DNA of 64,000 nucleotides from a bacterium. Its GTDB lineage: Bacteria > UBP6 > UBA1177. A program made the position numbers and the translations under genes. Under the pieces are notes generated by a model, which was not told the origin of the DNA, made no database searches, and saw nothing but the letters and a program-made list of their open reading frames with translations. Shown here one piece after another: positions 1,506-18,317 of the stretch (position 1 is the stretch's first letter; each line of letters begins with the position of its first letter). The stretch spans positions 2,045 through 66,044 of the forward strand of contig JAGCNV010000057.1 of assembly GCA_017645765.1 (NCBI GenBank). The letters are read 5' to 3'.

Positions 1506-2789
1506 ATGAAATTCAAAGTTTTTATCATAATTGCAGTTTTTGCGGCGATACAGGTTTCCTGCGGTTCCGGTAAAACAGTGAAACCTCAGGAAACAACAGC
1601 AGACCTTGACGAAAAGACAATAAAAATAACCTGTGAAAAACATAAAGTCGAATGCGGCGATTTTATAGCGACAGTAAACGGCTCTATGAAAGCGCTTTTC
1701 TGCGGAGAATGCGAAAAAGGTTTTACCTGCGACGATGCGACAAACAAATGCAAAAATGAATCCGATACTGACGAACCGGCAGACGATTCGGATGGACCTG
1801 CGGATGACTCGGATGATTCCGATGACGATTCTGACAACCAGCCGCAGGAAGCAGAAACAAGAGAAACTGCCTGCACCGGACTTCCCGAAAACGCCGAGTG
1901 GAACACCGTTTCCGAAATAGTCCAGACTAAGGAAAACGGTGAATGGATCCCTTCAGAAAAGGCTGCTTTCAATGCCGAATCAAGCACAAACGCATGCCGG
2001 TTCATCTGCAAGGAAAATTATGTCTGGAATTCCGAGGAATGTGTCGCACACACTCCGAGCGGTCTGCCTAAATGCCGTGCAAATGTCACAAAACCGTGCG
2101 AGGACCCTGCAACCGGAATAATCTGGTCGGAAATTATTTTAACACAAATGGACTGGGGCAACGCGAAGGCTTACTGTGACGATTTCGATGAAGGCGGTTA
2201 CACCGACTGGCGTCTTCCGAATATCGACGAAATGAGGACCGTTGTCAGAAACTGCTCGCGGATGATGACCGGCGGAGAATGCCCTGTCAGCGAATTGAAC
2301 GGCGCAACAACCTTCGCAGGAAACTACGATTCCGACGAAACCCGCTTGTTTTGCACCTGCGCCTACGACGCAGCAGACAGCATTATCGGAGACAGGAACA
2401 AAGTGCTCTGGACTTCGACCACTGTTTCAGATGTGACGATGTACGCATGGACATTGGATTCGAACTTATCGCTCTCCCCCGAAGCAAAGGAATCAAAGGC
2501 TTTCATGCACTGCATCAGATCGGATTACTTCCTGCATGACAGCCACTGTGACAAGCACTATACATGGGACGGTTCGGAATGCACGCCCGACACCAAAACG
2601 ACCGAATGCAAGGGACTTCCCGAAAACGCCGAGTGGAACGCTGTTTCCAGCATAACCCAGACATGGGACGGAACAAATTGGGTCCCTTCGGCATGGGCAG
2701 CTTACAATAAGAACTCCAGTTCATCGGAATGCCGTTTCAAATGTTACGAAGAATTCACATGGAACGGAAATGAATGCGTGCTGGATTAG
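1506..2789 (+). CDS. DUF1566 domain lipoprotein with Cys-rich repeats
   Basis: AGGAGG RBS; lipoprotein-like signal (QVSC); acidic linker; two GLPENAEWN...CRF.C repeats flank a DUF1566 domain (GYTDWRLPNIDEMR). Confidence 0.85.
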   Translation: MKFKVFIIIAVFAAIQVSCGSGKTVKPQETTADLDEKTIKITCEKHKVECGDFIATVNGSMKALFCGECEKGFTCDDATNKCKNESDTDEPADDSDGPADDSDDSDDDSDNQPQEAETRETACTGLPENAEWNTVSEIVQTKENGEWIPSEKAAFNAESSTNACRFICKENYVWNSEECVAHTPSGLPKCRANVTKPCEDPATGIIWSEIILTQMDWGNAKAYCDDFDEGGYTDWRLPNIDEMRTVVRNCSRMMTGGECPVSELNGATTFAGNYDSDETRLFCTCAYDAADSIIGDRNKVLWTSTTVSDVTMYAWTLDSNLSLSPEAKESKAFMHCIRSDYFLHDSHCDKHYTWDGSECTPDTKTTECKGLPENAEWNAVSSITQTWDGTNWVPSAWAAYNKNSSSSECRFKCYEEFTWNGNECVLD

Positions 2790-2837
2790 GGTTTTTAGTA
2801 GGGAACTTAGGGTGTTTAGGGTGTTTAGGGACCTAGA
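2787..2837. repeat. 9-nt-period TTAGGG-containing tandem repeat
   Basis: GGG tracts at 2789, 2801, 2810, 2819 and 2828 (ttagggtgt ttagggtgt ttagggacc). Confidence 0.75.
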
Positions 2838-2898
2838 TTCCCTGCTTTGAATTCAGATTTTGCTGAAACTGCAATGTTTTAAGAAGCAGTGATTGATT

Positions 2899-4479
2899 TT
2901 ACGACTCTTCCTTTCCTCTTAAGAATCTGCCGAAAAGAATCATTCCGAGCGGAGAAATGACTGCGACTGCACCGACCCAGATCCAGATCATGTAGTGGTG
3001 CGAGATGTCGCCGACCTGCAAGGTCTTTTCACCGGCTTCGTTGACGATTTCGGTTGCCGGCGTGTAGGCTGAAAGAAGCGCGCCCGACATCCATGCGACG
3101 AGGGGCTGCGAAATGAATTTGGGAAGAAGCGAAAGGCTGAGGTAGCTTGCTTCCTGCCCTTTCGGCGCGATTTTAGCAGTGTATTCCATAAGTCGCGGCG
3201 ACCAGATAGCCTCACCTATCGTGAAAAGAACGACGAAGAAGCAGAGACCGAGACAAATTGCTATCGTTGAAAGCGAGGAACCGTCCGGAAGAGCGAGCCA
3301 TTTCTGCCAGATGAGCCTACCGAGCATCGAATCTGCGATCGGAGCGTAGAATTCATCAGGCAAAACGACGAAAAATACCGATGCGGCCGAGATCAGAGAG
3401 CCTATCGTTATCATTTTGTATGCGCTCCACTTTCTCGTGAGCCATGCGATCGTCGGGACAAAGAAAATGACGATTACAGGGTTCAGAACACCGTAGATGT
3501 TGCCTATTTTCGCCCCTTCGCCGAGTACGCGGATCCCGTATTTCGGGAATGTGTAGTGGAAATGGTAGAAAACGTAGTTTACACCGAGAAGTATCGCCAA
3601 AAGCGCCATGAACTTCCAGAAAGCCTTCTGTTTCGCGACATTCACAAAGATTTTGCCTGCATCCGCAAACGAATTTTTTATCGAATCAAGGATCGAAACG
3701 AGCATGTTTCCTTCTTTTTTCGCCCTTTCGTTCTCGATGTGCTTTACGAGCTCGCCTTCGTCGTTGAGGTCGATGTTGTCACGGATTATCGCGACAAAGA
3801 AAAGTGTCGGGATGCTGATGAGAAACGCGACAAGAAGAATGAAGCGGTAAGTCGAAATCTCGCCCAGAAGCGGGATAGCGATGTTTCCGTATTCGCCGTA
3901 GACTTCACGGATCCCGTCAAAAATAAGTCCGCCCATAGCAAATCCGACGTTCATCAAAGTGTAGAACATCGCGAATCCGAGAGCCGAAGTGTCAGATTTC
4001 GTGTATCTTTTGAGTGCGACCGAAATGACCGGGCTCATAAATGCTACTGAAACCGCCTGCGGAACAAAGCCGAGAAGCGTAACGACCCAGAAATTTGTTG
4101 TGAGGAAAAGGAAAAATCTCGAAAATATTGCCAGGATCGTGCCGATAAGAAGCACTTTTTTGATTCCGACCGCGTCGACAAGCGAACCTACACCGAAAAT
4201 AAGGAGCGTATATGCTAAATTCCACGTTCCCATGTAGTTTCCCGCCGCGACATCACTGAGTCCCAGATCGCTCGACAGGAACAGAGTGAGCGTCATCAGC
4301 ATTACCGAATAAGCGGTGTATTCGATGATCTGCGAAATCGAGACGAACCAGATCTCACGCGGAGAAGTCTTGAGGCCGCGCTTGTAGTTGTAGACGATGT
4401 AAATAAAGTAAACGCAAGCCGCAGCTGCAACGGAATAAAGCAGATAAGTTATCCACTGCGGGAATTCAATATAGGACAT
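2899..4479 (-). CDS. MFS transporter (POT/peptide transporter-like)
   Basis: About 12-13 hydrophobic segments; motif-A-like GSLVDAVGIKK; GFAMFY..MNVG; TIGEAIWSPR...APKGQEASY. Confidence 0.85.
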   Translation of the reverse strand: MSYIEFPQWITYLLYSVAAAACVYFIYIVYNYKRGLKTSPREIWFVSISQIIEYTAYSVMLMTLTLFLSSDLGLSDVAAGNYMGTWNLAYTLLIFGVGSLVDAVGIKKVLLIGTILAIFSRFFLFLTTNFWVVTLLGFVPQAVSVAFMSPVISVALKRYTKSDTSALGFAMFYTLMNVGFAMGGLIFDGIREVYGEYGNIAIPLLGEISTYRFILLVAFLISIPTLFFVAIIRDNIDLNDEGELVKHIENERAKKEGNMLVSILDSIKNSFADAGKIFVNVAKQKAFWKFMALLAILLGVNYVFYHFHYTFPKYGIRVLGEGAKIGNIYGVLNPVIVIFFVPTIAWLTRKWSAYKMITIGSLISAASVFFVVLPDEFYAPIADSMLGRLIWQKWLALPDGSSLSTIAICLGLCFFVVLFTIGEAIWSPRLMEYTAKIAPKGQEASYLSLSLLPKFISQPLVAWMSGALLSAYTPATEIVNEAGEKTLQVGDISHHYMIWIWVGAVAVISPLGMILFGRFLRGKEES

Positions 4480-4520
4480 TTTTACCTCCGGAAAAAGGAG
4501 TTAAAAAAAGAGATGTTAAA

Positions 4521-5735
4521 CTATGCAATAGCTTTTGAAATATAGACCGCAAGTTTTGTCAGGCAGTTTACATAGCTGCCGAGTTCGTTGTCATACCAGC
4601 CGAAAATCTTGGCGTGGGTGACAGGAACATTTGACAACGGCGGAATATCAACGAAACCGGTTCTCGTGTGGGTATCGTTGCCTTCGATGACGCATGCAGC
4701 CATCTGCCCTTTGAGGTCGCTCGAAACATTCTGTCTTTCCGAAAGGTAAAGCAGATCCTTCTGCATTCCGGCAGCAGCTTCGCGGTAAACGTTGTTTATA
4801 AATTCGCGGTTGATCTTCGGAAAACCGTCCTTGTCAAGCGGCGTGTGGAATGTGAGGTTGAGATTGATAAGAGATACCGTCTGAACCGGAACGCGAACCG
4901 AATCAGCCATGAAACCGATGTTTTTCATTACCGGAAGGATGTATTCGAGAGCCTTTGCGGCGCCTGTCGTCGAAAGGATGATGTTGTAACCTGCCGCTCT
5001 GTTTTTACGGAGATCGCTCGTTCCGCTTTTGGGAACTGCGTCAAGAACGTTCTGCGAATTGGTCATCGAGTGGATCGTCGACATGCTTGCGGTAAGAATA
5101 GCCGAAGTCTCTTCGTGATCGAGAAGTGGCTTCATCATGTGTGCAAGCGCCGTAGTCGTGCAGGATGCAGCCGAAATTATGTGGTGGTTCATCGGATCGA
5201 AATTTCTGTGGTTGACGCCATAAACCATCATAACTGCGTCTTCCGGAAGAGTTTTCGATTTTCCTTTGAGTTTGAAGGGAGCCGAAAGAATGACTTTTCT
5301 AGCGCCGCCTGCGATGTGGCCTCTGAGAGAGCCGTTCGGAGAAGATTCATCGCTCGGATCTACGAATTTTCCGGTCGTGTCGATGACGACTCTTGCCCCT
5401 TCCTGACCCCACGGGATCTTTTCCGGATTTCTTTCGCTTCTCAAAAATTTGACCTTTTTGCCGTAGAAGCTGACTTCGCCGTTTGCCTCGTCGGTTATCT
5501 CGATTTCAGGCTCTTTCGTGCTGCCGAAACCGAAAAGGAAATTGTGAAGAGTTCCGTAAGTCGAATCGTAGATCGCATAATCGACAAGATCTGTAAGCGA
5601 TTTGCCGACTTCACGCCCGAGATTGATGACGATTCTGTCAAAATCATCCTTCAGAAGCATGTTCCAAAGAGTAAGTTTTCCGATTCTGCCGAATCCGTTG
5701 ATACCGATTGTAGCCTTGCAGTTGATGTCAATCAT
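4521..5735 (-). CDS. gap: glyceraldehyde-3-phosphate dehydrogenase (type I family, divergent)
   Basis: GINGFGRIGK nucleotide-binding motif; ASCTT catalytic Cys; TTGAAKA; RVP; WYDNE. Confidence 0.85.
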   Translation of the reverse strand: MIDINCKATIGINGFGRIGKLTLWNMLLKDDFDRIVINLGREVGKSLTDLVDYAIYDSTYGTLHNFLFGFGSTKEPEIEITDEANGEVSFYGKKVKFLRSERNPEKIPWGQEGARVVIDTTGKFVDPSDESSPNGSLRGHIAGGARKVILSAPFKLKGKSKTLPEDAVMMVYGVNHRNFDPMNHHIISAASCTTTALAHMMKPLLDHEETSAILTASMSTIHSMTNSQNVLDAVPKSGTSDLRKNRAAGYNIILSTTGAAKALEYILPVMKNIGFMADSVRVPVQTVSLINLNLTFHTPLDKDGFPKINREFINNVYREAAAGMQKDLLYLSERQNVSSDLKGQMAACVIEGNDTHTRTGFVDIPPLSNVPVTHAKIFGWYDNELGSYVNCLTKLAVYISKAIA

Positions 5736-5839
5736 AACGACCTCCTAAAATGAATTGGTAAAAATCAAAAACACAATATTTTAGGAATCCTCAAACATTT
5801 TGCAAATTTAATTAAAAACCAGACAGAAATTTCCTGCGT

Positions 5840-5868
5840 TTGACAACAAAGCCTTTTTCGAGTAATAT
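5840..5868 (+). promoter_or_regulatory. sigma70-type promoter
   Basis: TTGACA (5840-5845), 17-nt spacer, TAATAT (5863-5868), upstream of the lipoprotein gene at 5904. Confidence 0.55.
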
Positions 5869-5903
5869 TAAAAGGTTTATGGTTAGTTTTTTGGAGAAGT
5901 TCA

Positions 5904-7124
5904 ATGAAAAAGATTTTATTTGCCGCATTTATGGTTTTTGCTGCATTTTTTATCGTCTCATGCGCCGGAGAAGATGAAATAGCAAACGCTATCGGAAAAT
6001 CCTGTGCTGTCGAAGGCGAGGAAATCTGCTCGGATGACAATTCACAAATTTTGATTTGCCGCGATTTTTCGTGGCAGATGAAAAAGAGCTGCAACCTCAA
6101 TTTCGGTCAGTACTGCCGACAGACGGCAAGCGGTTCTTTCAGCTGCACCGACAGCGGAAACTCTACTGAACCTACCAACGAACCTACCGAAACCGAACCG
6201 ACAGAGCAGGAACCGGAACCGGAAGACAATGAACCTACAGATCCGGAACCTTCCGACAACGAACCAAACGATAATGAACCGGCTGACAATGAACCTACAG
6301 ATCCGGAACCTTCCGACAACGAACCGTCCGATGATGATACGGAACCCGCAAATGATAACGACACCGAACCTGTTGTTAAAGATCTGGAAACATGCACAGA
6401 TATAGCCAAATGCCGGAAAGACTGCGATACAAGCAGCTGCAGAACCGAATGCTACAACAGAGGAACAGACGAAGCGCAGAATGATTATGACGAAGCCACC
6501 CAGAAATGTATGACTTATACGGAACTCGATGATTTGAAAAAATGCCTTGAACTTCGTTTGAAATGCGGCACACCCGGTGACGAAAGTTACGCCTTACCTT
6601 ACGGACACGCTGTTATAAACGGTTCGTTCTCATACATTAACGATCCGGCAACGACTTCTTTTTCACAAGGCACTTTCATTGGTACTTTCGTAAACGGCAT
6701 TTTCGGTTCGAACGGAAACATTCCCGACGCAACTTCAAATGCTACGTTTTCGTATGCTGAAGTGAGTACAAACGGCAAATATCTTGTGCTGAATCAGGGA
6801 TATGATTCCAGTGAAGAAAACAAGACACCTTATGTCGGACTTATTATCGAAGCCACAGCCCCCGGAACTTATCTGGTAGGGGTCGATTCTAAAAGCAAGA
6901 TAGAAATGGATGTTTACGAACCTGTCTCAAGCACATCAATCTGCTATCATGCTTTCGGTTACGGTTATCTCGAACTTGACGGAACAGCACTTACAGACAC
7001 CTATTCAATCGGAGCCGGAACAATAACAGTAAAAGGCGAAGTTGACCTTTACAGCTACAAAAACGCACCGATGTACAACGGAGACATAACAAACACCGAC
7101 GTCGTAGCCTGCCAGCCTAAATAA
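5904..7124 (+). CDS. Cys-rich lipoprotein with acidic Pro/Glu/Asp linker, unknown function
   Basis: Signal peptide ending FIVSC; Cys-rich domains; EPTDPEPSDN repeats. Confidence 0.8.
   Translation: MKKILFAAFMVFAAFFIVSCAGEDEIANAIGKSCAVEGEEICSDDNSQILICRDFSWQMKKSCNLNFGQYCRQTASGSFSCTDSGNSTEPTNEPTETEPTEQEPEPEDNEPTDPEPSDNEPNDNEPADNEPTDPEPSDNEPSDDDTEPANDNDTEPVVKDLETCTDIAKCRKDCDTSSCRTECYNRGTDEAQNDYDEATQKCMTYTELDDLKKCLELRLKCGTPGDESYALPYGHAVINGSFSYINDPATTSFSQGTFIGTFVNGIFGSNGNIPDATSNATFSYAEVSTNGKYLVLNQGYDSSEENKTPYVGLIIEATAPGTYLVGVDSKSKIEMDVYEPVSSTSICYHAFGYGYLELDGTALTDTYSIGAGTITVKGEVDLYSYKNAPMYNGDITNTDVVACQPK
6225..6325 (+). repeat. intragenic 41-nt exact direct repeat (60-nt period)
   Basis: gacaatgaacctacagatccggaaccttccgacaacgaacc at 6225-6265 and 6285-6325. 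Confidence 0.9.
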
Positions 7125-12529: not shown

Positions 12530-14950
12530 ATGAAAAAATTCTGTTCCGTTTTCGCACTTTTCTGCCTACTGTTTTTCGCAGTTTCCTGCGATTCAGGAAT
12601 CAAATTTGAGAACCCGAATGACATAAACTCTGATGCCTACAATCCTGAAAGCAGCGAAAATGAAACCAATGATGAAGACACCGACCAAACCGACACAGAA
12701 CAAGAAAACGAAAACAGTGACACCGAGCCTGACAACAGCGATTCCGAGCCGGAAGACACAGACACGGATGATCCTGAGGACGATACCGATTCAGGTGATA
12801 CCGCTGATGAAGACTACACCGAAGATATCACCGATACAGGCACGGAAACCGGTGAAACGCGAGTTCAGGACTGCTCCGAGCTGCCCGAAAATGCACAGTG
12901 GAACACTGTTTCGGCGATAGTCCAGAGCTGGGACGGTGAAAAGTGGGTCCCGTCGTCAAAAACATCATTCAATCTGGAAGGAAGCGAGGACGAATGCCGC
13001 TTTAAATGCAGCACAAACTACGGCTGGGACGGCTCAAAATGCGATGCCGATACAAGAAATGTCTACTGCGATAACCTGCCGGAACACGCTCAATGGAATG
13101 ACGGCGGCAGAAACGGCACTTTTGCCCAGACCTGGAACGGCGAAGTGTGGGTCCCGACTTCCCACGACGCGGTTTACAGCAAAACTCCTGCTGAATGCGG
13201 ATTTATCTGCGTTACTGGTTATGTCTGGGACGGCTCACAGTGCGACACCGCACCTACTCAGAGCGCAAACTGCACGGGGCTTCCTTCTGGAGCTGAGTGG
13301 AACACGGCTTCAAGCATAACCCAGACCTGGGACGGTGAAAAATGGGTTCCCGAATCAACTGCCGGTGTTTACAACACGACAGCCAGCACAACGGAATGCC
13401 GCTTTAAATGCAAAACCAATTACACATGGAGCGGTTCATCCTGCGTTGCGAACACAAAAGTTTCTCCCTGCATGAACCTGCCCGAAAACGCGCAGTGGAA
13501 TACAGTAAACAGCATCACGCAGACTTGGAGCGGAGAAGAGTGGCAGCCTTCAACAACCGGAACTTACAACACGACATCTTCGACAACTCAGTGCAGGTTC
13601 AAATGCAACACGAACTACACTTGGAACGGTTCAATCTGCGCGGCAGACACAAAAGTCGGCAAATGCCCTTCAAAACCGGCAAATACAGTCTGGAACGACG
13701 GCGGAGCAAACGGCACATTCACCCAGACTTGGAACGGAGAAGACTGGATCCCTGCAAGCTATGACTCGGAATACAGCCTGACAGCAGGCATCTGCCGCTA
13801 TAAATGCGATACCGGCTACGCATGGAATAACGGCGTATGCGAAACAGCTTCGACAAGAACCGCCGCTTGCCAGTCAAAGCCTGCGAACACTGAATGGAAC
13901 ACGGTTTCAGAAATCACGCAGACATACACCGGTTCAGGCTGGCAGCCTTCAACCACACCAGTTTACAACGAAACTCCGAGCGAAAGCGAATGCAGATACA
14001 AATGCGCATCGGGATACAACTGGAACGGAAATTCCTGCACAAATCAATCGCCTTCAGGCACGCTCACTCTCGGCAACATCTGCACAGGGCAGACATCGTG
14101 CTACAACGCATCATCCTCAATGACCTGCCCGACCTCGTCGAGTGCCGATTTCTTCGGGCAGGATGCACAGTATGCAGCTCAGGGAATATGCACACCACAG
14201 AGTTTCACAGTTCAGACGATTTCATCACAAAAAGTCGTCCTTGACAACAATACTGGTTTGATGTGGCAGCAGACGATCGCGCCTTCGACTTACATTTGGG
14301 ACAAAGCCGTTTTATACTGCAACAATCTGCCTTACGCAAGTTACACAGACTGGAGAGTGCCGACACCGAACGAACTTCTGACTATCGTTGAGAACAGCAA
14401 GTATGATCAGGCAATCGACACGACCTATTTTCCTAACACCCCGGGCAGCTATTTTTGGTCTTCCTCTACCTACGCCTCCAATACTAGCTACGCGTGGGGC
14501 GTGCTCTTCGGCTACGGCTATGTGTACGGCAGCTATAAGACAGGCGACAGCTATGTGCGTTGTGTGAGAGGGGCAGCCTTGCCGACAGGATCTTTTACAT
14601 CCACGACAGTTCAAGGTAATGTCATTGTGACAGACACAGAAACCGGACTCATCTGGCAGAAAACTTATGTGTCGGGCAAAACCTGGCAACAGGCTCTTTC
14701 CTACTGCGAAAGTCTGACTTATGCAGGATATTCCGACTGGCGGCTTCCAGACAAAAACGAACTCGCTTCGCTTATAAATTATGAAAAATATAACCCTGCA
14801 TCAGATTTTCCTGATATGCCTTCACAATATTTTTGGTCTTCCTCTACCTACGCCGGCTATACTTACTACGCGTGGTACGTGAACTTCAACGACGGGAATG
14901 TGGACAGCAGCAATAAGACAGACAGCCGCTATGTGCGTTGTGTGAGGTAA
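12530..14950 (+). CDS. lipoprotein with six Cys-rich repeats and two tandem DUF1566 domains; putative DGR target
   Basis: GGAGG RBS; FAVSC lipobox-like signal; acidic linker; six ~65-aa Cys repeats; GQDAQY; two domains D..TGL.WQ...W..A..YC..L.YA.Y.DWR.P...FWSSST...YVRCVR. Confidence 0.92.
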   Translation: MKKFCSVFALFCLLFFAVSCDSGIKFENPNDINSDAYNPESSENETNDEDTDQTDTEQENENSDTEPDNSDSEPEDTDTDDPEDDTDSGDTADEDYTEDITDTGTETGETRVQDCSELPENAQWNTVSAIVQSWDGEKWVPSSKTSFNLEGSEDECRFKCSTNYGWDGSKCDADTRNVYCDNLPEHAQWNDGGRNGTFAQTWNGEVWVPTSHDAVYSKTPAECGFICVTGYVWDGSQCDTAPTQSANCTGLPSGAEWNTASSITQTWDGEKWVPESTAGVYNTTASTTECRFKCKTNYTWSGSSCVANTKVSPCMNLPENAQWNTVNSITQTWSGEEWQPSTTGTYNTTSSTTQCRFKCNTNYTWNGSICAADTKVGKCPSKPANTVWNDGGANGTFTQTWNGEDWIPASYDSEYSLTAGICRYKCDTGYAWNNGVCETASTRTAACQSKPANTEWNTVSEITQTYTGSGWQPSTTPVYNETPSESECRYKCASGYNWNGNSCTNQSPSGTLTLGNICTGQTSCYNASSSMTCPTSSSADFFGQDAQYAAQGICTPQSFTVQTISSQKVVLDNNTGLMWQQTIAPSTYIWDKAVLYCNNLPYASYTDWRVPTPNELLTIVENSKYDQAIDTTYFPNTPGSYFWSSSTYASNTSYAWGVLFGYGYVYGSYKTGDSYVRCVRGAALPTGSFTSTTVQGNVIVTDTETGLIWQKTYVSGKTWQQALSYCESLTYAGYSDWRLPDKNELASLINYEKYNPASDFPDMPSQYFWSSSTYAGYTYYAWYVNFNDGNVDSSNKTDSRYVRCVR
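14450..14568 (+). repeat. putative DGR variable region VR1 (internal)
   Basis: 119-nt ungapped match to 14828-14946 with 21 mismatches, 20 of them at positions 1-2 of NNC/NNT codons. Confidence 0.8.
14828..14946 (+). repeat. putative DGR variable region VR2 (3' terminal)
   Basis: Partner of VR1; retains several AAC/AAT codons; ends just before the stop codon. Confidence 0.82.
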
Positions 14951-14990
14951 GTATCCGTGACCGCATTTTACGAGCGCAGCGAGTTATTTT

Positions 14991-15017
14991 CGCCCGCCCT
15001 TTTGAAGGGGGCGGGCG
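14991..15017 (+). terminator. GC-rich hairpin downstream of VR2
   Basis: cgcccgccc/gggcgggcg 9-bp perfect stem. Could be a terminator or a DGR homing-associated hairpin; no clear U-tract on +. Confidence 0.45.
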
Positions 15018-15063
15018 CTTGGCTCCCACTTCGGGGGAGCTGCCGCAAAGCGGCTGAGAGGGC
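15018..15063. repeat. REP-like palindromic element
   Basis: cttggctcccacttcgggggagctgccgcaaagcggctgagagggc; related to 12218-12261 and, inverted, to 18389-18413. Confidence 0.65.
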
Positions 15064-15112
15064 ATCCCGCCGCAGGCGGGTCGAAAATTTTTAATTTTTT
15101 AGGAGATACAAA

Positions 15113-17068: not shown

Positions 17069-17109
17069 ACGTGACCTGACACGTCCAAACGTATTTTGTG
17101 GAGGCAAAA

Positions 17110-18195
17110 ATGAAATTCAACTCTTTGATTTTATTGCTCGTTTCGTTGTTCGTTCTGTTTTCCTGCGATTCCGGGATCAAATTCAACAATCCGAACGACA
17201 TAAATTCAGACGCATACAATCCAAGCGACACAGAAGCAGACACCGACGATGACAGCGACAAAACTGACACGATATCAGAATACGACGAAGATAAAACTGA
17301 CACGGTGTCAGGAAATGATGAAGAAGAAACCGACACTTCCGTGCCAGACGATGACACCGATACAACTCCGGCTGATCCCTGTGATCCAAATCCGTGCAAC
17401 AGTATCGAAAATTCGACTGGCGACTGCACTGTCAACGGCACAGGCTATATCTGCGGCTGCAATACGCACTACACATGGGTAGACTCACTCTGTAAGGCGG
17501 AAGAGCGGGCTAAACCATGCACCGGAAAACCGGAGAACGCAAGCTGGAATACAGCTTCACAGATAAAACAAACATGGAACGGTGAAGACTGGTATCCATC
17601 TACTGCAGGTGTTTACAACACAAATGCAAGTACAACGGAATGCAGGTTCAAATGCGATACAGGCTACAACTGGAATGGCTCAGCCTGCGTTTCAGGCGGC
17701 TCGTCACTTCCTGAATGCAGCGCGTCGTCAGGCACACCGTGCAAGGATTCGTCAAGCGGCCTCATCTGGTCGGCAAAGGCATCAAGCAGGATGACTTGGA
17801 GCAACGCAGTTTCGTATTGTGACAATCTGACAGAAGGCGGCTATTCAGACTGGCATTTACCGAATATTGACGAGCTCAAAACGCTTTTGATAGCAAACAG
17901 AGTAACAAGCAACTGTGCAGTAAGCGAAGCAAACAACTGCTTGTCTTACAGCAGCTGCTGGAGCTGCTCGACCTGCACGCAGACAGGCACTCAGTCATCA
18001 AGCGGAACAAGGTGTTCTGATTGGGGAACTTCATACAGCGACGGCAGATACAGCAAATTCGGAGAAACCGGCGGATTCTGGTCTTCCTCTACTCAATCAG
18101 ATAATACAGGTTACGCATGGCGCGTGGATTTCGGCTACGGAAGCGTGTACAGCCTCGATAAGACTGACAGCCGCGATGTCCGTTGTGTGAGGTAG
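17110..18195 (+). CDS. DUF1566 domain lipoprotein; putative DGR target
   Basis: Lipobox-like LFSC then DSGIKF.NPNDINSDAYNP shared with the 12530 gene; EGF-like motif; one Cys repeat; DUF1566 ending FWSSST...VRCVR. Confidence 0.9.
   Translation: MKFNSLILLLVSLFVLFSCDSGIKFNNPNDINSDAYNPSDTEADTDDDSDKTDTISEYDEDKTDTVSGNDEEETDTSVPDDDTDTTPADPCDPNPCNSIENSTGDCTVNGTGYICGCNTHYTWVDSLCKAEERAKPCTGKPENASWNTASQIKQTWNGEDWYPSTAGVYNTNASTTECRFKCDTGYNWNGSACVSGGSSLPECSASSGTPCKDSSSGLIWSAKASSRMTWSNAVSYCDNLTEGGYSDWHLPNIDELKTLLIANRVTSNCAVSEANNCLSYSSCWSCSTCTQTGTQSSSGTRCSDWGTSYSDGRYSKFGETGGFWSSSTQSDNTGYAWRVDFGYGSVYSLDKTDSRDVRCVR
18073..18195 (+). repeat. putative DGR variable region VR3
   Basis: Colinear with VR1/VR2 (tggtcttcctctac ... 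cgttgtgtgagg); NNY codons at most of the same variable sites. Confidence 0.6.
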
Positions 18196-18317
18196 CCCGT
18201 TACGCAAAACAAAATCCCCTCAATCTCTCTGCGGGTTCGCAAACCGGATCCGCGGAGGAATTTTGTCCGTTGTGTAAGGAATTAGGAATAATAAAATTTT
18301 CAATAATTTCTCCCCCC

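What the first reader, a model, noticed from the sequence alone, without database searches (positions are those of the whole stretch)
14450..14946. Two DGR-style variable regions inside one surface lipoprotein, with no local template or reverse transcriptase
Seen: 14450-14568 and 14828-14946 align without gaps over 119 nt with 21 mismatches. Twenty fall at positions 1-2 of NNC/NNT codons (e.g. tcc/ggc, agc/tac, ctc/aac, ggc/aac, gac/agc), and the only third-position change is ggc/ggg (the third paralog has gga there). Immediately upstream, the two DUF1566 domains are clearly divergent in DNA, so the similarity has a sharp boundary. Known: DGR retrohoming mutates template adenines, turning AAC/AAT codons into NNC/NNT in C-type-lectin-fold targets such as DUF1566 proteins. 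Inference: both segments are rewritten from one template like TGGTCTTCCTCTACC-wAC-GCC-AAC-AAT-ACT-AAC-wAC-GCG-TGG-AAC-GTG-AAC-TTC-AAC-AAC-GGA-AAT-GTG-AAC-AAC-AAC-AAT-AAG-ACA-AAC-AAC-AAC-wAT-GTG-CGT-TGT-GTG-AG, located elsewhere in the genome. An internal plus a terminal variable region would give one protein two independently diversified binding heads. The internal one is not followed by a stop codon or a strong hairpin, which questions the usual homing requirements.
Basis: partly seen in the sequence, partly recalled or inferred. Interest (0 to 1): 0.9.

Follow-up and report, generated by a model that had tools for sequence, protein, structure and literature searches.

The report
Two DGR-written tips, one lipoprotein
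A rumen bacterium's surface lipoprotein has two lectin-like binding domains whose tips were both rewritten by a diversity-generating retroelement, but the matching template is missing from this genome assembly, so they look like leftovers of a lost or unassembled element.

Summary
14450-14568 and 14828-14946 align without gaps, with 21 mismatches in 119 nt: 20 at codon positions 1-2 and 1 at position 3. All 21 lie at adenine positions of the closest template region (TR) found, in a congener (p about 1e-10). The two copies agree at all 68 non-adenine positions, while the domain DNA just upstream is only 62% identical. Each segment ends one of two tandem Lcl_C (DUF1566) C-type-lectin-like domains of an 806-aa probable lipoprotein.

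The genome does hold DGRs: two intact target-Avd-TR-RT cassettes on other contigs. Neither TR fits, with 8-9 (TR_A) or 15-16 (TR_B) non-adenine mismatches per 111 nt. The neighbouring paralogue (17098-18195) fits TR_A (21 adenine mismatches, 1 other).

I did not find it in this assembly or in any collection searched.

The terminal VR keeps the 3' element and GC hairpin of the cassette's own VR. The internal VR has neither.

Among 31 homologues both VRs are equally hypervariable. Contigs from two studies carry identical VRs. This is a real DGR imprint, now orphaned. Internal and multiple VRs, and leftover targets, are already described.

The parts
12530..14950 (+). Gene for an 806-aa probable surface lipoprotein. 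It has a signal peptide ending in Cys20 (FFAVSC), an acidic low-complexity stretch, Cys-containing WNT..ITQTW repeats, and two tandem Lcl_C domains.
   Evidence: ORF list. Pfam Lcl_C PF07603: E 2.1e-67, 225 bits, 2 stretches; DUF5874 28.6 bits. The lipobox is read from the sequence only; no predictor was run.
14243..14569 (+). First (internal) Lcl_C / C-type-lectin-like domain. Limits are approximate.
   Evidence: AlphaFold2 model of residues 540-806: pLDDT 94.1, pTM 0.90. Foldseek best hit is the Legionella Lcl C-terminal domain 8q4e_A (TMt 0.64, rmsd 2.3 over 110 columns), followed by tandem-CTLD receptors.
14456..14569 (+). VR1, the internal variable region (TGG...AGA). It continues in frame into the linker GAALPTGSF.
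   Evidence: 21 adenine-type differences from VR2 and none at 68 non-A positions. No IMH-like element and no structure downstream. No nucleotide conservation beyond coding in the 9 two-domain-type linkers among 21 segments not followed by a stop.
14624..14947 (+). Second (terminal) Lcl_C / C-type-lectin-like domain.
   Evidence: Pfam best stretch is residues 699-806. Model and fold search as above.
14834..14947 (+). VR2, the terminal variable region (TGG...AGG), followed by TAA at 14948-14950.
   Evidence: Non-adenine mismatches to the own TRs are 8 (TR_A) and 15 (TR_B) per 111 nt.
14951..14991 (+). IMH-like 3' element of VR2 (GTATCCGTGACCGCATTTTACGAGCGCAGCGAG...). It is the VR-type form (ACC), where the TRs have AAC.
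   Evidence: Window 14956-15016 is 98% identical over 61 nt to the flank of VR_A, the own VR of cassette DGR-A (C35 4111-4171). The VR versus TR flank pattern GA[C/A]CGCA is seen in DGR-A and DGR-B.
14992..15016 (+). GC hairpin (GCCCGCCC-TTTTGAAG-GGGGCGGGC) after the IMH-like element.
   Evidence: DNA fold of 14940-15060: -29.0 kcal/mol, z -3.20, 0 of 200 shuffles fold as well. The same hairpin follows VR_A.
17098..18195 (+). Paralogous 365-aa lipoprotein (P3) with one Lcl_C domain. It is a remote target of the DGR-A-type template.
   Evidence: Pfam Lcl_C E 6.1e-21. VR 18079-18192 against own TR_A: 21 adenine mismatches and 1 other. Against the TR of G014:C46: 0 non-adenine mismatches.

Best explanation
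The gene 12530..14950 encodes a probable surface lipoprotein with two tandem C-type-lectin-like (Lcl_C/DUF1566) domains. Each domain ends in a variable region of a diversity-generating retroelement (DGR). Both regions were last written from one template lineage, here called type C (translation WSSSTNANNTNNAWNVNFNNGNVNNNNKTNNNNVRCVR). This is a sister of the two templates the genome still carries in intact target-Avd-TR-RT cassettes: DGR-A on contig C35 and DGR-B on contig C34.

The type C cassette is not in this assembly. I read it as lost from this lineage, so VR1 and VR2 are now orphaned, static variable regions. The neighbouring paralogue at 17098-18195 was written by the resident DGR-A type.

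How it worked (inferred from the established DGR model, not shown here): the RT with Avd copies TR RNA into cDNA and misreads adenines. The cDNA then replaces the VR, guided by the element 3' of the VR. VR2 has that element and its hairpin and is the homing-competent site.

VR1 has neither. I slightly favour (about 0.45) that VR1 holds a copy of an earlier VR2 state, made by VR-to-VR conversion, and that VR2 was diversified again afterwards. Direct homing into VR1 is nearly as likely (about 0.4).

Shown: the adenine-only pattern, the fold, the two cassettes, the misfit to both own TRs, the shared 3' element, and a TR-ORF with the predicted translation in public data. Inferred: the loss of the cassette, the present inactivity, and the route by which VR1 was written. 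The confidence of 0.6 is for the core claim: DGR-written from a third template lineage that this genome no longer holds.
For: Pattern: all 21 of 21 VR1/VR2 mismatches lie at adenines of the nearest TR (p 1.1e-10), with 68 of 68 non-A positions identical. Upstream domain DNA is 62% identical.

Cassettes: PF00078 matches at C35 and C34. Avd matches phrog_3206 'Avd protein of DGR' at E 2.7e-12 and 1.7e-10, and the RTs match phrog_1423 at E 2.4e-101 and 1.9e-100. The best solved relative of the RT is 8ub7_A at E 2e-43, against 8.3e-11 for a group II intron RT. The cognate pairs behave as DGRs: VR_A/TR_A has 20 adenine mismatches and 1 other, and VR_B/TR_B has 15 and 1.

Misfit: VR1 and VR2 have 9 and 8 non-A mismatches to TR_A and 16 and 15 to TR_B per 111 nt, and the two VRs share these positions. 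No better TR was found by a gapless A-tolerant scan or by BLAST of the 109 contigs. No third RT or Avd fragment was found by tblastn.

The type C lineage exists: TR-ORF P0125 (97 aa, 23 contigs) has the predicted translation and an N-terminal spacer 73-79% identical to the TR-ORFs of G000:C34 and G009:C86. C-type VRs with the same 3' flank occur in other rumen and gut MAGs.

VR2's 3' element is 98% identical over 61 nt to that of VR_A.

Stasis: contigs of runs X3 (study P2, 2025) and X5 (study P1, 2021) cover both VRs with 0-1 other letters. Both studies cannot be the source of the window.

Orphans are common here: G006 and G003 (both 99% complete) gave no RT match at E <= 1e-20, yet carry VR-like segments.

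Precedent: T. denticola isolates keep targets after losing RT and TR, and isolate SP32 has a remote target that fits a lost TR type (PMC4891356, passages read).

VR-to-VR copying: in the gene at the matching position in G006, the internal and terminal VRs share a 42-nt identical run that starts exactly at TGG. The run includes codons changed at template-adenine sites (AGG, ACT, CGC), while the scaffold DNA is 60% identical.
Against: The assembly is a 109-contig MAG whose shortest contig is 1507 nt. A third cassette about 76-80% like the other two could have been left unassembled or unbinned, so its absence from the assembly is not loss from the organism.

P0125 is known only as protein. The synonymous sites that separate type C from the G009 TR (positions 57, 66, 87, 102) could not be checked.

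The stasis argument rests on Logan contigs, which drop minor variants, and one of the two studies may be the source of the window.

A contig of run X7, 96% identical over domain 2 (10 other letters in 266 nt), continues into an A-type VR (loose end at 14847; 2 contigs, agreement 0.82). So this site has been rewritten in a sister strain, and it may not be dead everywhere.

For the VR1 sub-step: internal VRs are as hypervariable as terminal ones among 31 homologues (2.74 against 2.81 bits) and as depleted in K/E/Q/M/W (3.1% against 2.9%; scaffold 17.6%). Other internal VRs differ from known TR types only at adenines: G003:C31 has 23 adenine mismatches and 0 others. Both results fit direct homing equally well. 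The shared codons in G006 could also reflect selection, since AGG recurs at that codon in other VRs.
Confidence: 0.6

Rival explanations
1. Both VRs are live targets of a third, type C DGR cassette that the organism has but the MAG lacks, because it was unassembled, collapsed with DGR-A/B, on a contig under 1.5 kb, or unbinned.
For: The assembly has 109 contigs and none shorter than 1507 nt. The TR-ORF P0125 with the predicted translation is seen on 23 contigs in public data. VR1 and VR2 agree at 68 of 68 non-A positions, so they were written recently. VR2 keeps an intact IMH-like element and hairpin.
Against: The assembly is 99% complete with 1.76% contamination. tblastn with RT_A and Avd_A finds only the two known cassettes plus one repeat-derived 29-aa hit. 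Cassettes A and B, 76% identical at the protein level, both assembled cleanly. The VRs are identical in contigs from two studies. Two congeners that are 99% complete lack any RT match yet keep such VRs.
Confidence: 0.22
2. The internal VR1 is itself retrohomed. cDNA from the shared template is integrated at an in-frame site with no IMH-like element or hairpin, using only the conserved ends of the VR (TGGTCTTCCTCTAC... and ...CGTTGTGTGAG). The protein then has two independently diversified heads.
For: Across 31 homologues the 18 variable codons have entropy 2.74 bits (internal) and 2.81 bits (terminal), against 0.54 and 0.40 at constant codons and 0.71 in the scaffold. K/E/Q/M/W make up 17 of 556 and 16 of 556 residues at variable codons, against 1047 of 5948 in the scaffold, as expected if the codons are limited to NNY. 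Internal VRs in other genes differ from known TR types only at adenines: G003:C31 has 23 adenine mismatches and 0 others, and the G006 internal VR has 22-23 and 1-3. Published cases of internal VRs appear mutagenised (PMC5758913, passage read).
Against: VR1's 3' flank has no IMH-like sequence and no structure (z +0.23). The 9 two-domain-type linkers after internal VRs vary at synonymous sites, so no hidden DNA element is visible. The G006 internal and terminal VRs share a 42-nt run that includes codons changed at template-adenine sites, which points to VR-to-VR copying. No extant cognate TR allows a direct test. All the evidence for this reading is also expected if internal VRs are refreshed by conversion.
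Confidence: 0.4
3. The resident DGR-A (or DGR-B) currently diversifies VR2 and VR1, and the non-adenine mismatches are tolerated or come from partial replacement.
For: VR2's 3' element is 98% identical over 61 nt to that of DGR-A's own VR. The neighbouring paralogue P3 fits TR_A. A sister-strain contig (X7) shows an A-type VR at this site.
Against: The 8-9 (TR_A) and 15-16 (TR_B) non-adenine mismatches are shared by VR1 and VR2 and spread from position 15 to position 102. A homing event from TR_A would have erased them over the replaced tract. Cognate pairs show 0-1 such mismatches.
Confidence: 0.05
4. No retroelement is involved. The two segments were homogenised by ordinary gene conversion and then diverged under positive selection on binding residues.
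For: The tandem paralogous domains could recombine. Tyr, Ser, Asn, Asp and Gly dominate binding-site positions in many binders.
Against: 21 of 21 differences sit at homologous TR adenines (p 1.1e-10), 20 of 21 are at codon positions 1-2 of NNC/NNT codons, and no synonymous or non-A change occurs at 68 positions. DGR cassettes with sister TRs are in the same genome. A TR-ORF with the exact predicted translation exists.
Confidence: 0.03

Closest known systems
Legionella pneumophila DGR and its lipoprotein target LdtA (DUF1566/CLec2 class; category 'd' of Wu et al., PMC5758913)
   Same: The target is a lipoprotein. The variable region ends a DUF1566/Lcl_C-type C-type-lectin-like domain. The cassettes here have the order target-Avd-TR-RT. 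The best structural match of the model is the Legionella Lcl C-terminal domain 8q4e_A. The description of the class comes from passages read.
   Different: Here one protein has two tandem domains with two VRs, one of them internal. The cognate TR is not beside the gene and is not in the assembly.
Treponema denticola DGRs: TvpA, up to seven remote targets, and isolates that keep targets after losing RT and TR (PMC4891356)
   Same: There are remote targets scattered in the genome. Target genes persist in genomes without RT or TR. One remote target (isolate SP32) fits a lost TR type better than the resident one, as VR1 and VR2 do here (passages read). P3 here is a remote target of the resident DGR-A type.
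   Different: The T. denticola targets are FGE-sulfatase-type CLec1 proteins with one C-terminal VR each. Here the targets are Lcl_C-type, with an internal plus a terminal VR.
Marichromatium purpuratum 984 ORF with three tandem FGE-sulfatase domains and three VRs (PMC3521204). Described in PMC5758913 as a CLec1 target with three VRs, two of them internal.
   Same: Several VR-bearing lectin-fold domains sit in tandem in one ORF, so some VRs are internal and their 3' recognition sequence must lie in coding DNA (passages read).
   Different: The domain class differs (FGE/CLec1). That gene sits with its TR in one cassette. Here the cognate TR is missing, and the architecture recurs in many homologues: all 30 close homologues examined have the two-domain block.
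Bordetella phage BPP-1 DGR (Mtd; IMH plus hairpin at the 3' end of the VR)
   Same: The pattern is adenine-specific, and the VR forms the end of a C-type-lectin fold. VR2, VR_A and VR_B are followed by a short element that differs from the TR's copy at one base (ACC against AAC) and by a GC hairpin. That this corresponds to IMH/IMH* is my reading from recalled knowledge of BPP-1.
   Different: This is a cellular rather than a phage element. There are several TR lineages and trans targets. VR1 lacks the element altogether.

Membership tests
DGR variable region (target of mutagenic retrohoming) | A cognate TR in the same genome that differs from the VR (almost) only at TR adenines | tested here: not met
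   The own TRs give 9 and 8 non-A mismatches (TR_A) and 16 and 15 (TR_B) per 111 nt. No other TR is in the 109 contigs. The nearest TR anywhere is G009:C86, with 5 non-A mismatches. At the protein level only, P0125 fits every codon.
DGR variable region (target of mutagenic retrohoming) | Variation confined to positions that are adenines in the template, mostly in AAC/AAT codons | tested here: met
   21 of 21 VR1/VR2 differences are at adenines of the nearest TR (p 1.1e-10). 20 of 21 are at codon positions 1-2. 68 of 68 non-A positions are identical.
DGR variable region (target of mutagenic retrohoming) | DGR-type reverse transcriptase and accessory protein (Avd) in the genome | tested here: met
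   There are two cassettes. RVT_1 scores 69.1 and 67.7 bits. phrog_3206 'Avd protein of DGR' matches at E 2.7e-12 and 1.7e-10. NCBIfam Avd gives only 16 bits, below its cut-off of 80. The RT's best PDB relative is 8ub7_A at E 2e-43. The RT contains IGNLTSQ; that this is a DGR hallmark is recalled, not tested.
DGR variable region (target of mutagenic retrohoming) | 3' recognition element (IMH-like) and hairpin after the VR | tested here: inconclusive
   VR2 meets it: 98% identity over 61 nt to VR_A's flank, and a hairpin fold with z -3.20. VR1 does not: no similarity and z +0.23.
DGR variable region (target of mutagenic retrohoming) | Ongoing variation in the population (SNVs enriched at template-adenine sites) | tested here: inconclusive
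   Only Logan contigs were on hand. X3 and X5 carry the same VR1 and VR2 (0-1 other letters). Contigs drop minor variants, and no raw reads were available.
C-type-lectin-fold DGR variable protein, DUF1566/Lcl_C class | Lcl_C (PF07603) domain above Pfam's cut-off, with the VR forming its C-terminal strands | tested here: met
   Pfam Lcl_C scores 225 bits against a cut-off of 34.9, in 2 stretches. The model has pLDDT 94.1. The VRs cover the last strands of each domain, model residues 104-141 and 230-267. Foldseek finds 8q4e_A at E 1.6e-4 and tandem CTLD receptors. Sequence search of the PDB found nothing at E <= 0.01.
Bacterial lipoprotein | Signal peptide with a lipobox cysteine | not tested
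   Read from the sequence only: MKKFCSVFALFCLLFFAVSC/DSG. No predictor was run.

The most novel reading that the evidence does not exclude
The internal VR of this two-headed lipoprotein family is retrohomed directly, at an in-frame site that has no IMH-like element, no hairpin and no conserved downstream DNA. DGR cDNA would then be installed using only the roughly 15-nt conserved ends of the VR itself. Different TR lineages circulating in the rumen population would overwrite the same heads in trans.
Probability: 0.35. Interest if true: 0.65.

Novelty: new member of a known kind. Interest (0 to 1): 0.45.

Why it matters
This is a clean natural example of three things that DGR surveys usually miss because they look only next to the RT.

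- Trans targets: the paralogue P3 fits a TR on another contig.
- Variable regions that carry the imprint of a template lineage the genome no longer shows, beside two resident cassettes of sister lineages.
- A widespread family of rumen and gut lipoproteins with two tandem lectin-like heads, in which the internal head is as hypervariable as the terminal one although it lacks the usual 3' recognition element.

If the internal head is homed directly, the accepted requirement for an IMH and a hairpin would need qualifying for this class. If it is refreshed by copying from the terminal VR, that is a cheap way to bank an earlier binding specificity. Either way the locus offers a matched pair of targets, with and without the element, for testing homing determinants. 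For annotation, it shows that a VR can be called from two paralogous copies alone, and that the inferred template can be checked against TR-ORFs in protein databases.

Tried and rejected
Searches for the type C template that found none:
- BLAST of VR1 against the own genome: 20 matches, and the only TRs among them are TR_A and TR_B.
- A gapless scan that tolerates mismatches at genome adenines: the best are TR_A (10 and 9 non-A mismatches per 119 nt) and TR_B (17 and 16).
- A regex census of VR/TR-like segments in the own genome: 16 segments, 2 of them TRs.
- tblastn with RT_A and Avd_A: only the two cassettes plus one repeat-derived 29-aa hit.
- BLAST of VR2 in 41 relatives: 22 have matches; I read the fetched loci only.
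- RT survey of the 23 genomes of the family: 12 have a match. The scan listed 6 TRs, 4 of them from relatives, and none is type C.
- A VR2-derived IUPAC pattern in JGI metagenome contigs: 2 hits, both unrelated DGR TRs.
- The same pattern, and a 3'-flank pattern, in viral contigs: 0 hits each.
- The 3'-flank pattern in species-representative genomes: 4 hits, all VR-type (ACC), no TR.
- P0125 against the 36 genomes of the order: the best match is G009:C86 at 79%, so its own genome is not among them.

Close strain variants of the protein: the best non-self hit was 82% identical among proteins of similar length and 67% among shorter ones. No near-identical orthologue was available to show strain-level VR turnover.

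Ten of 18 variable codons are shared between own VR1 and the terminal VR of P0056. I considered this as evidence of VR copying and dropped it. Among 1891 pairs, 2 reach 10, and composition bias makes about 0.3 expected by my own rough binomial estimate, which was not a tool result.

Taxonomy: the Atlas look-up with UvrC gave only generic UvrC clusters. Run labels (bovine gut and gut metagenomes) and the titles of related MAGs (water-buffalo rumen, goat duodenum) place it in ruminant guts.

A hidden internal recognition element: of 21 segments not followed by a stop, the 9 with two-domain-type linkers vary at synonymous sites.

The NCBIfam Avd model gave only 16 bits against a cut-off of 80, and Pfam gave nothing for Avd. 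The PHROGs model did match.

A paper search for the PDB code 8UB7 found nothing. That the chain is the Bordetella phage RT is recalled only.

Parts of the window without contig cover in X6 and X7 were not interpreted.

Supplementary tables of PMC5758913, which list the internal-VR cases, were not seen.

Full report
**What is there.** The window is G000:C67:2045-66044 of a 2.65-Mb assembly in 109 contigs, 99% complete with 1.76% contamination. ORF 12530..14950 (+) encodes 806 aa. It begins MKKFCSVFALFCLLFFAVSC/DSG, which I read as a probable lipoprotein signal; no predictor was run. An acidic stretch and Cys-containing WNT..ITQTW repeats follow, and the protein ends in two Pfam Lcl_C (PF07603, formerly DUF1566) domains (E 2.1e-67, two stretches). 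An AlphaFold2 model of residues 540-806, built on a 40-sequence alignment, has pLDDT 94.1 and pTM 0.90. Foldseek's best solved match is the Legionella Lcl C-terminal domain (8q4e_A; TMt 0.64, rmsd 2.3 over 110 columns), followed by receptors with tandem C-type lectin domains. A sequence search of the PDB found nothing at E <= 0.01.

**The observation.** 14450-14568 and 14828-14946 align without gaps with 21 mismatches in 119 nt, both in the reading frame. Twenty mismatches are at codon positions 1-2 and one is at position 3 (GGC/GGG). In 15 of them one copy has A. The domain DNA just upstream is only 151/242 identical (62%), with 35 gap columns. The internal copy (VR1, 14456-14569) runs on in frame into a linker. 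Its 3' flank folds like shuffled sequence (z +0.23). The terminal copy (VR2, 14834-14947) is followed by TAA and by strong hairpins (z -3.20; 0 of 200 shuffles fold as well).

**The genome does have DGRs.** PF00078 finds two RTs. Each sits in a cassette with the order lipoprotein target with a C-terminal VR, a 128-aa protein, a TR, then the RT.
- DGR-A is on C35: target 1550-4108, Avd 4273-4659, TR from 4828, RT 4948-6336.
- DGR-B is on C34.

The 128-aa proteins match phrog_3206 'Avd protein of DGR' (E 2.7e-12 and 1.7e-10). They reach only 16 bits against the NCBIfam Avd model, whose cut-off is 80. The RT's best solved relative is 8ub7_A (E 2e-43), far ahead of group II intron RTs. The cognate pairs behave as DGRs: VR_A/TR_A has 20 adenine mismatches and 1 other, and VR_B/TR_B has 15 and 1. 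The third paralogue in the window (17098-18195; VR 18079-18192) has 21 adenine mismatches and 1 other against TR_A. It has 0 non-adenine mismatches against the TR of a congener, G014:C46. It is therefore a remote target of the DGR-A type.

**Neither TR wrote VR1 or VR2.** Per 111 nt, VR1 and VR2 have 9 and 8 non-adenine mismatches to TR_A and 16 and 15 to TR_B. The two VRs share these positions. No better template exists in the 109 contigs by BLAST, by an adenine-tolerant gapless scan or by a census of VR/TR-like segments (16 found, 2 of them TRs). No third RT or Avd fragment exists. Among the 4 TRs recovered from relatives, the closest is G009:C86, with 5 non-adenine mismatches to each VR at the same five positions. 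Against that TR, all 21 of 21 VR1/VR2 differences fall at its 45 adenines (hypergeometric p 1.1e-10), and the two VRs agree at all 68 non-adenine positions. So both VRs were written from one template of a third lineage, type C.

**The template exists, elsewhere.** In DGR-B the TR lies inside a 96-aa ORF. Searching that ORF against the protein collection gave 72 hits among 79 candidates. One of them, P0125 (97 aa, seen on 23 contigs, sources NCBI and ENA), ends in FWSSSTNANNTNNAWNVNFNNGNVNNNNKTNNNNVRCVR. Its N-terminal part is 73-79% identical to the TR-ORFs of G000:C34 and G009:C86, so it comes from a homologous cassette. Its DNA could not be fetched, so the synonymous positions remain unchecked. 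Its genome is not among the 36 representatives of the order. Pattern scans of JGI metagenome contigs (2 unrelated hits), viral contigs (0 and 0) and species-representative genomes (4 hits, all VRs) did not find the TR.

**Homing signals.** After their stop codons, VR_A and VR_B share a short stretch with their TRs, up to a GA[C/A]CGCA motif. The VRs have ACC and the TRs have AAC there. A GC hairpin follows in the VRs. VR2 has the VR-type form, and window 14956-15016 is 98% identical to VR_A's flank. VR1 has nothing of the kind. Of 21 segments from the fetched loci that are not followed by a stop, the 9 with two-domain-type linkers vary at synonymous sites, so no hidden element shows.

**Is the internal VR a real hypervariable site?** I started from the 120 best homologues listed, out of 1872 with E <= 1e-30 among 8000 candidates. 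I dropped the self hit, and 8 whose alignment did not span the 267-aa query. Of the 111 left, I analysed the 30 that are at least 62% identical, plus the window's protein. All 30 have the two-domain block.

| Measure | Internal VR | Terminal VR | Scaffold |
|---|---|---|---|
| Mean entropy, 18 variable codons (bits) | 2.74 | 2.81 | 0.71 (all scaffold columns) |
| Mean entropy, constant VR codons (bits) | 0.54 | 0.40 | n/a |
| K/E/Q/M/W at variable codons | 17 of 556 | 16 of 556 | 1047 of 5948 |

The residues that NNY codons cannot encode are depleted equally in both VRs. Internal VRs of other genes differ from known TR types only at adenines: G003:C31 has 23 adenine mismatches and 0 others, and the G006 internal VR has 22-23 and 1-3. 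So internal VRs in this family turn over as terminal ones do.

**How VR1 is written is not settled.** The gene at the matching position in G006 lies between uvrC (98% aa identity) and the 651-aa neighbour (93%). Its internal and terminal VRs share a 42-nt identical run that starts exactly at TGG. The run includes codons changed at template-adenine sites (AGG, ACT, CGC), while the scaffolds are 60% identical and the VRs differ downstream. That is what VR-to-VR copying followed by partial re-diversification from the 3' end would leave, although selection for the same residues cannot be excluded. I slightly favour copying for VR1 (0.45) over direct homing (0.4).

**Is it active now?** Only Logan contigs were available. 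Runs X3 (study P2, 2025) and X5 (study P1, 2021) each cover VR1 and VR2 with 0-1 other letters. The contig breaks lie at sequences repeated on C35, not in the VRs. Both studies cannot be the source of the window, so the same pair of VRs was recovered at least twice. A contig of X7 that is 96% identical over domain 2 runs into an A-type VR, so the site has been rewritten in a sister strain. G006 and G003, both 99% complete, gave no RT match yet hold such VRs. Leftover targets are therefore common in this genus, as reported for T. denticola (PMC4891356, passages read).

**Comparison with what is known.** Passages read report:
- Wu et al. [quoted passage not shown]
- Schillinger et al. (PMC3521204): the three-VR ORF of Marichromatium.

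The supplementary tables of these papers were not seen. A search for rumen, Treponema and DGR together found 2 papers that hold all three terms, of which 1 was listed, the global survey PMC8144416. That survey says its approach would miss remote targets. The finding is thus a new member of known kinds.

**Verdict.** The DGR imprint is real and well supported, with two VRs in one Lcl_C lipoprotein. The cognate template is absent from this assembly but is present in public data at the protein level. It is most likely an orphaned target pair. Interest is moderate.

Noticed in passing
window 17098-18195 (VR 18079-18192): The paralogous 365-aa lipoprotein is a remote target of the DGR-A-type template on another contig. 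It has 21 adenine mismatches and 1 other against own TR_A, and 0 non-adenine mismatches against the TR of G014:C46. It therefore seems to have been written before TR_A changed AAC to AAT at codon 22.
   Followed up: partly
window 18196-18279: The 3' flank of that paralogue looks more like the flank of the TRs (CGTTACGCAAAAC...ATCCCC) than like the VR-type element. A second, orphan copy of the VR 3' end (GTCCGTTGTGTAAGG) lies at 18265-18279. I have no explanation.
   Followed up: no
G000:C35 6415-6502 (L011) against window 14594-14681: An 88-nt fragment 95% identical to the start of the second domain lies 79 nt after the stop of RT_A. At the same place in G014:C14 there is a whole 140-aa one-domain lipoprotein gene with a VR and the same 3' flank as VR2. 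The cassette therefore seems once to have carried a second target downstream of the RT.
   Followed up: partly
window 15021-15064; G000:C35 6046-6092; G000:C33 about 13249-13291: A 44-nt GC-rich repeat after the VR2 hairpin also lies in frame inside the C-terminal part of the RT_A ORF (89% over 47 nt), where RT_A is about 20 aa longer than RT_B, and on contig C33. Whether it affects the RT is unknown.
   Followed up: no
window 14895 joined to 18176 (run X6): One 517-nt contig of a related strain joins the second domain and the start of VR2 to the downstream flank of the third paralogue, with 35 other letters between. This suggests recombination between the two VRs, or a different gene order, in that strain.
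   Followed up: no
L047 (G006:C3:18000-32000): In a congener with no RT match, the locus between uvrC and the 651-aa gene holds a P3-like gene plus a two-VR gene only 54% identical in protein to the one here. Both of its VRs are of the A type. The flanking genes are 93-98% identical in protein while the lipoprotein genes are reshuffled.
   Followed up: partly
G000:C65 63036-63830 and other own-genome sites: The genome holds at least one more two-domain Lcl_C gene, whose internal and terminal VR-like ends are diverged (117 and 144 nt), and several other decayed VR-like ends. This is a large paralogous family in various states of decay.
   Followed up: no
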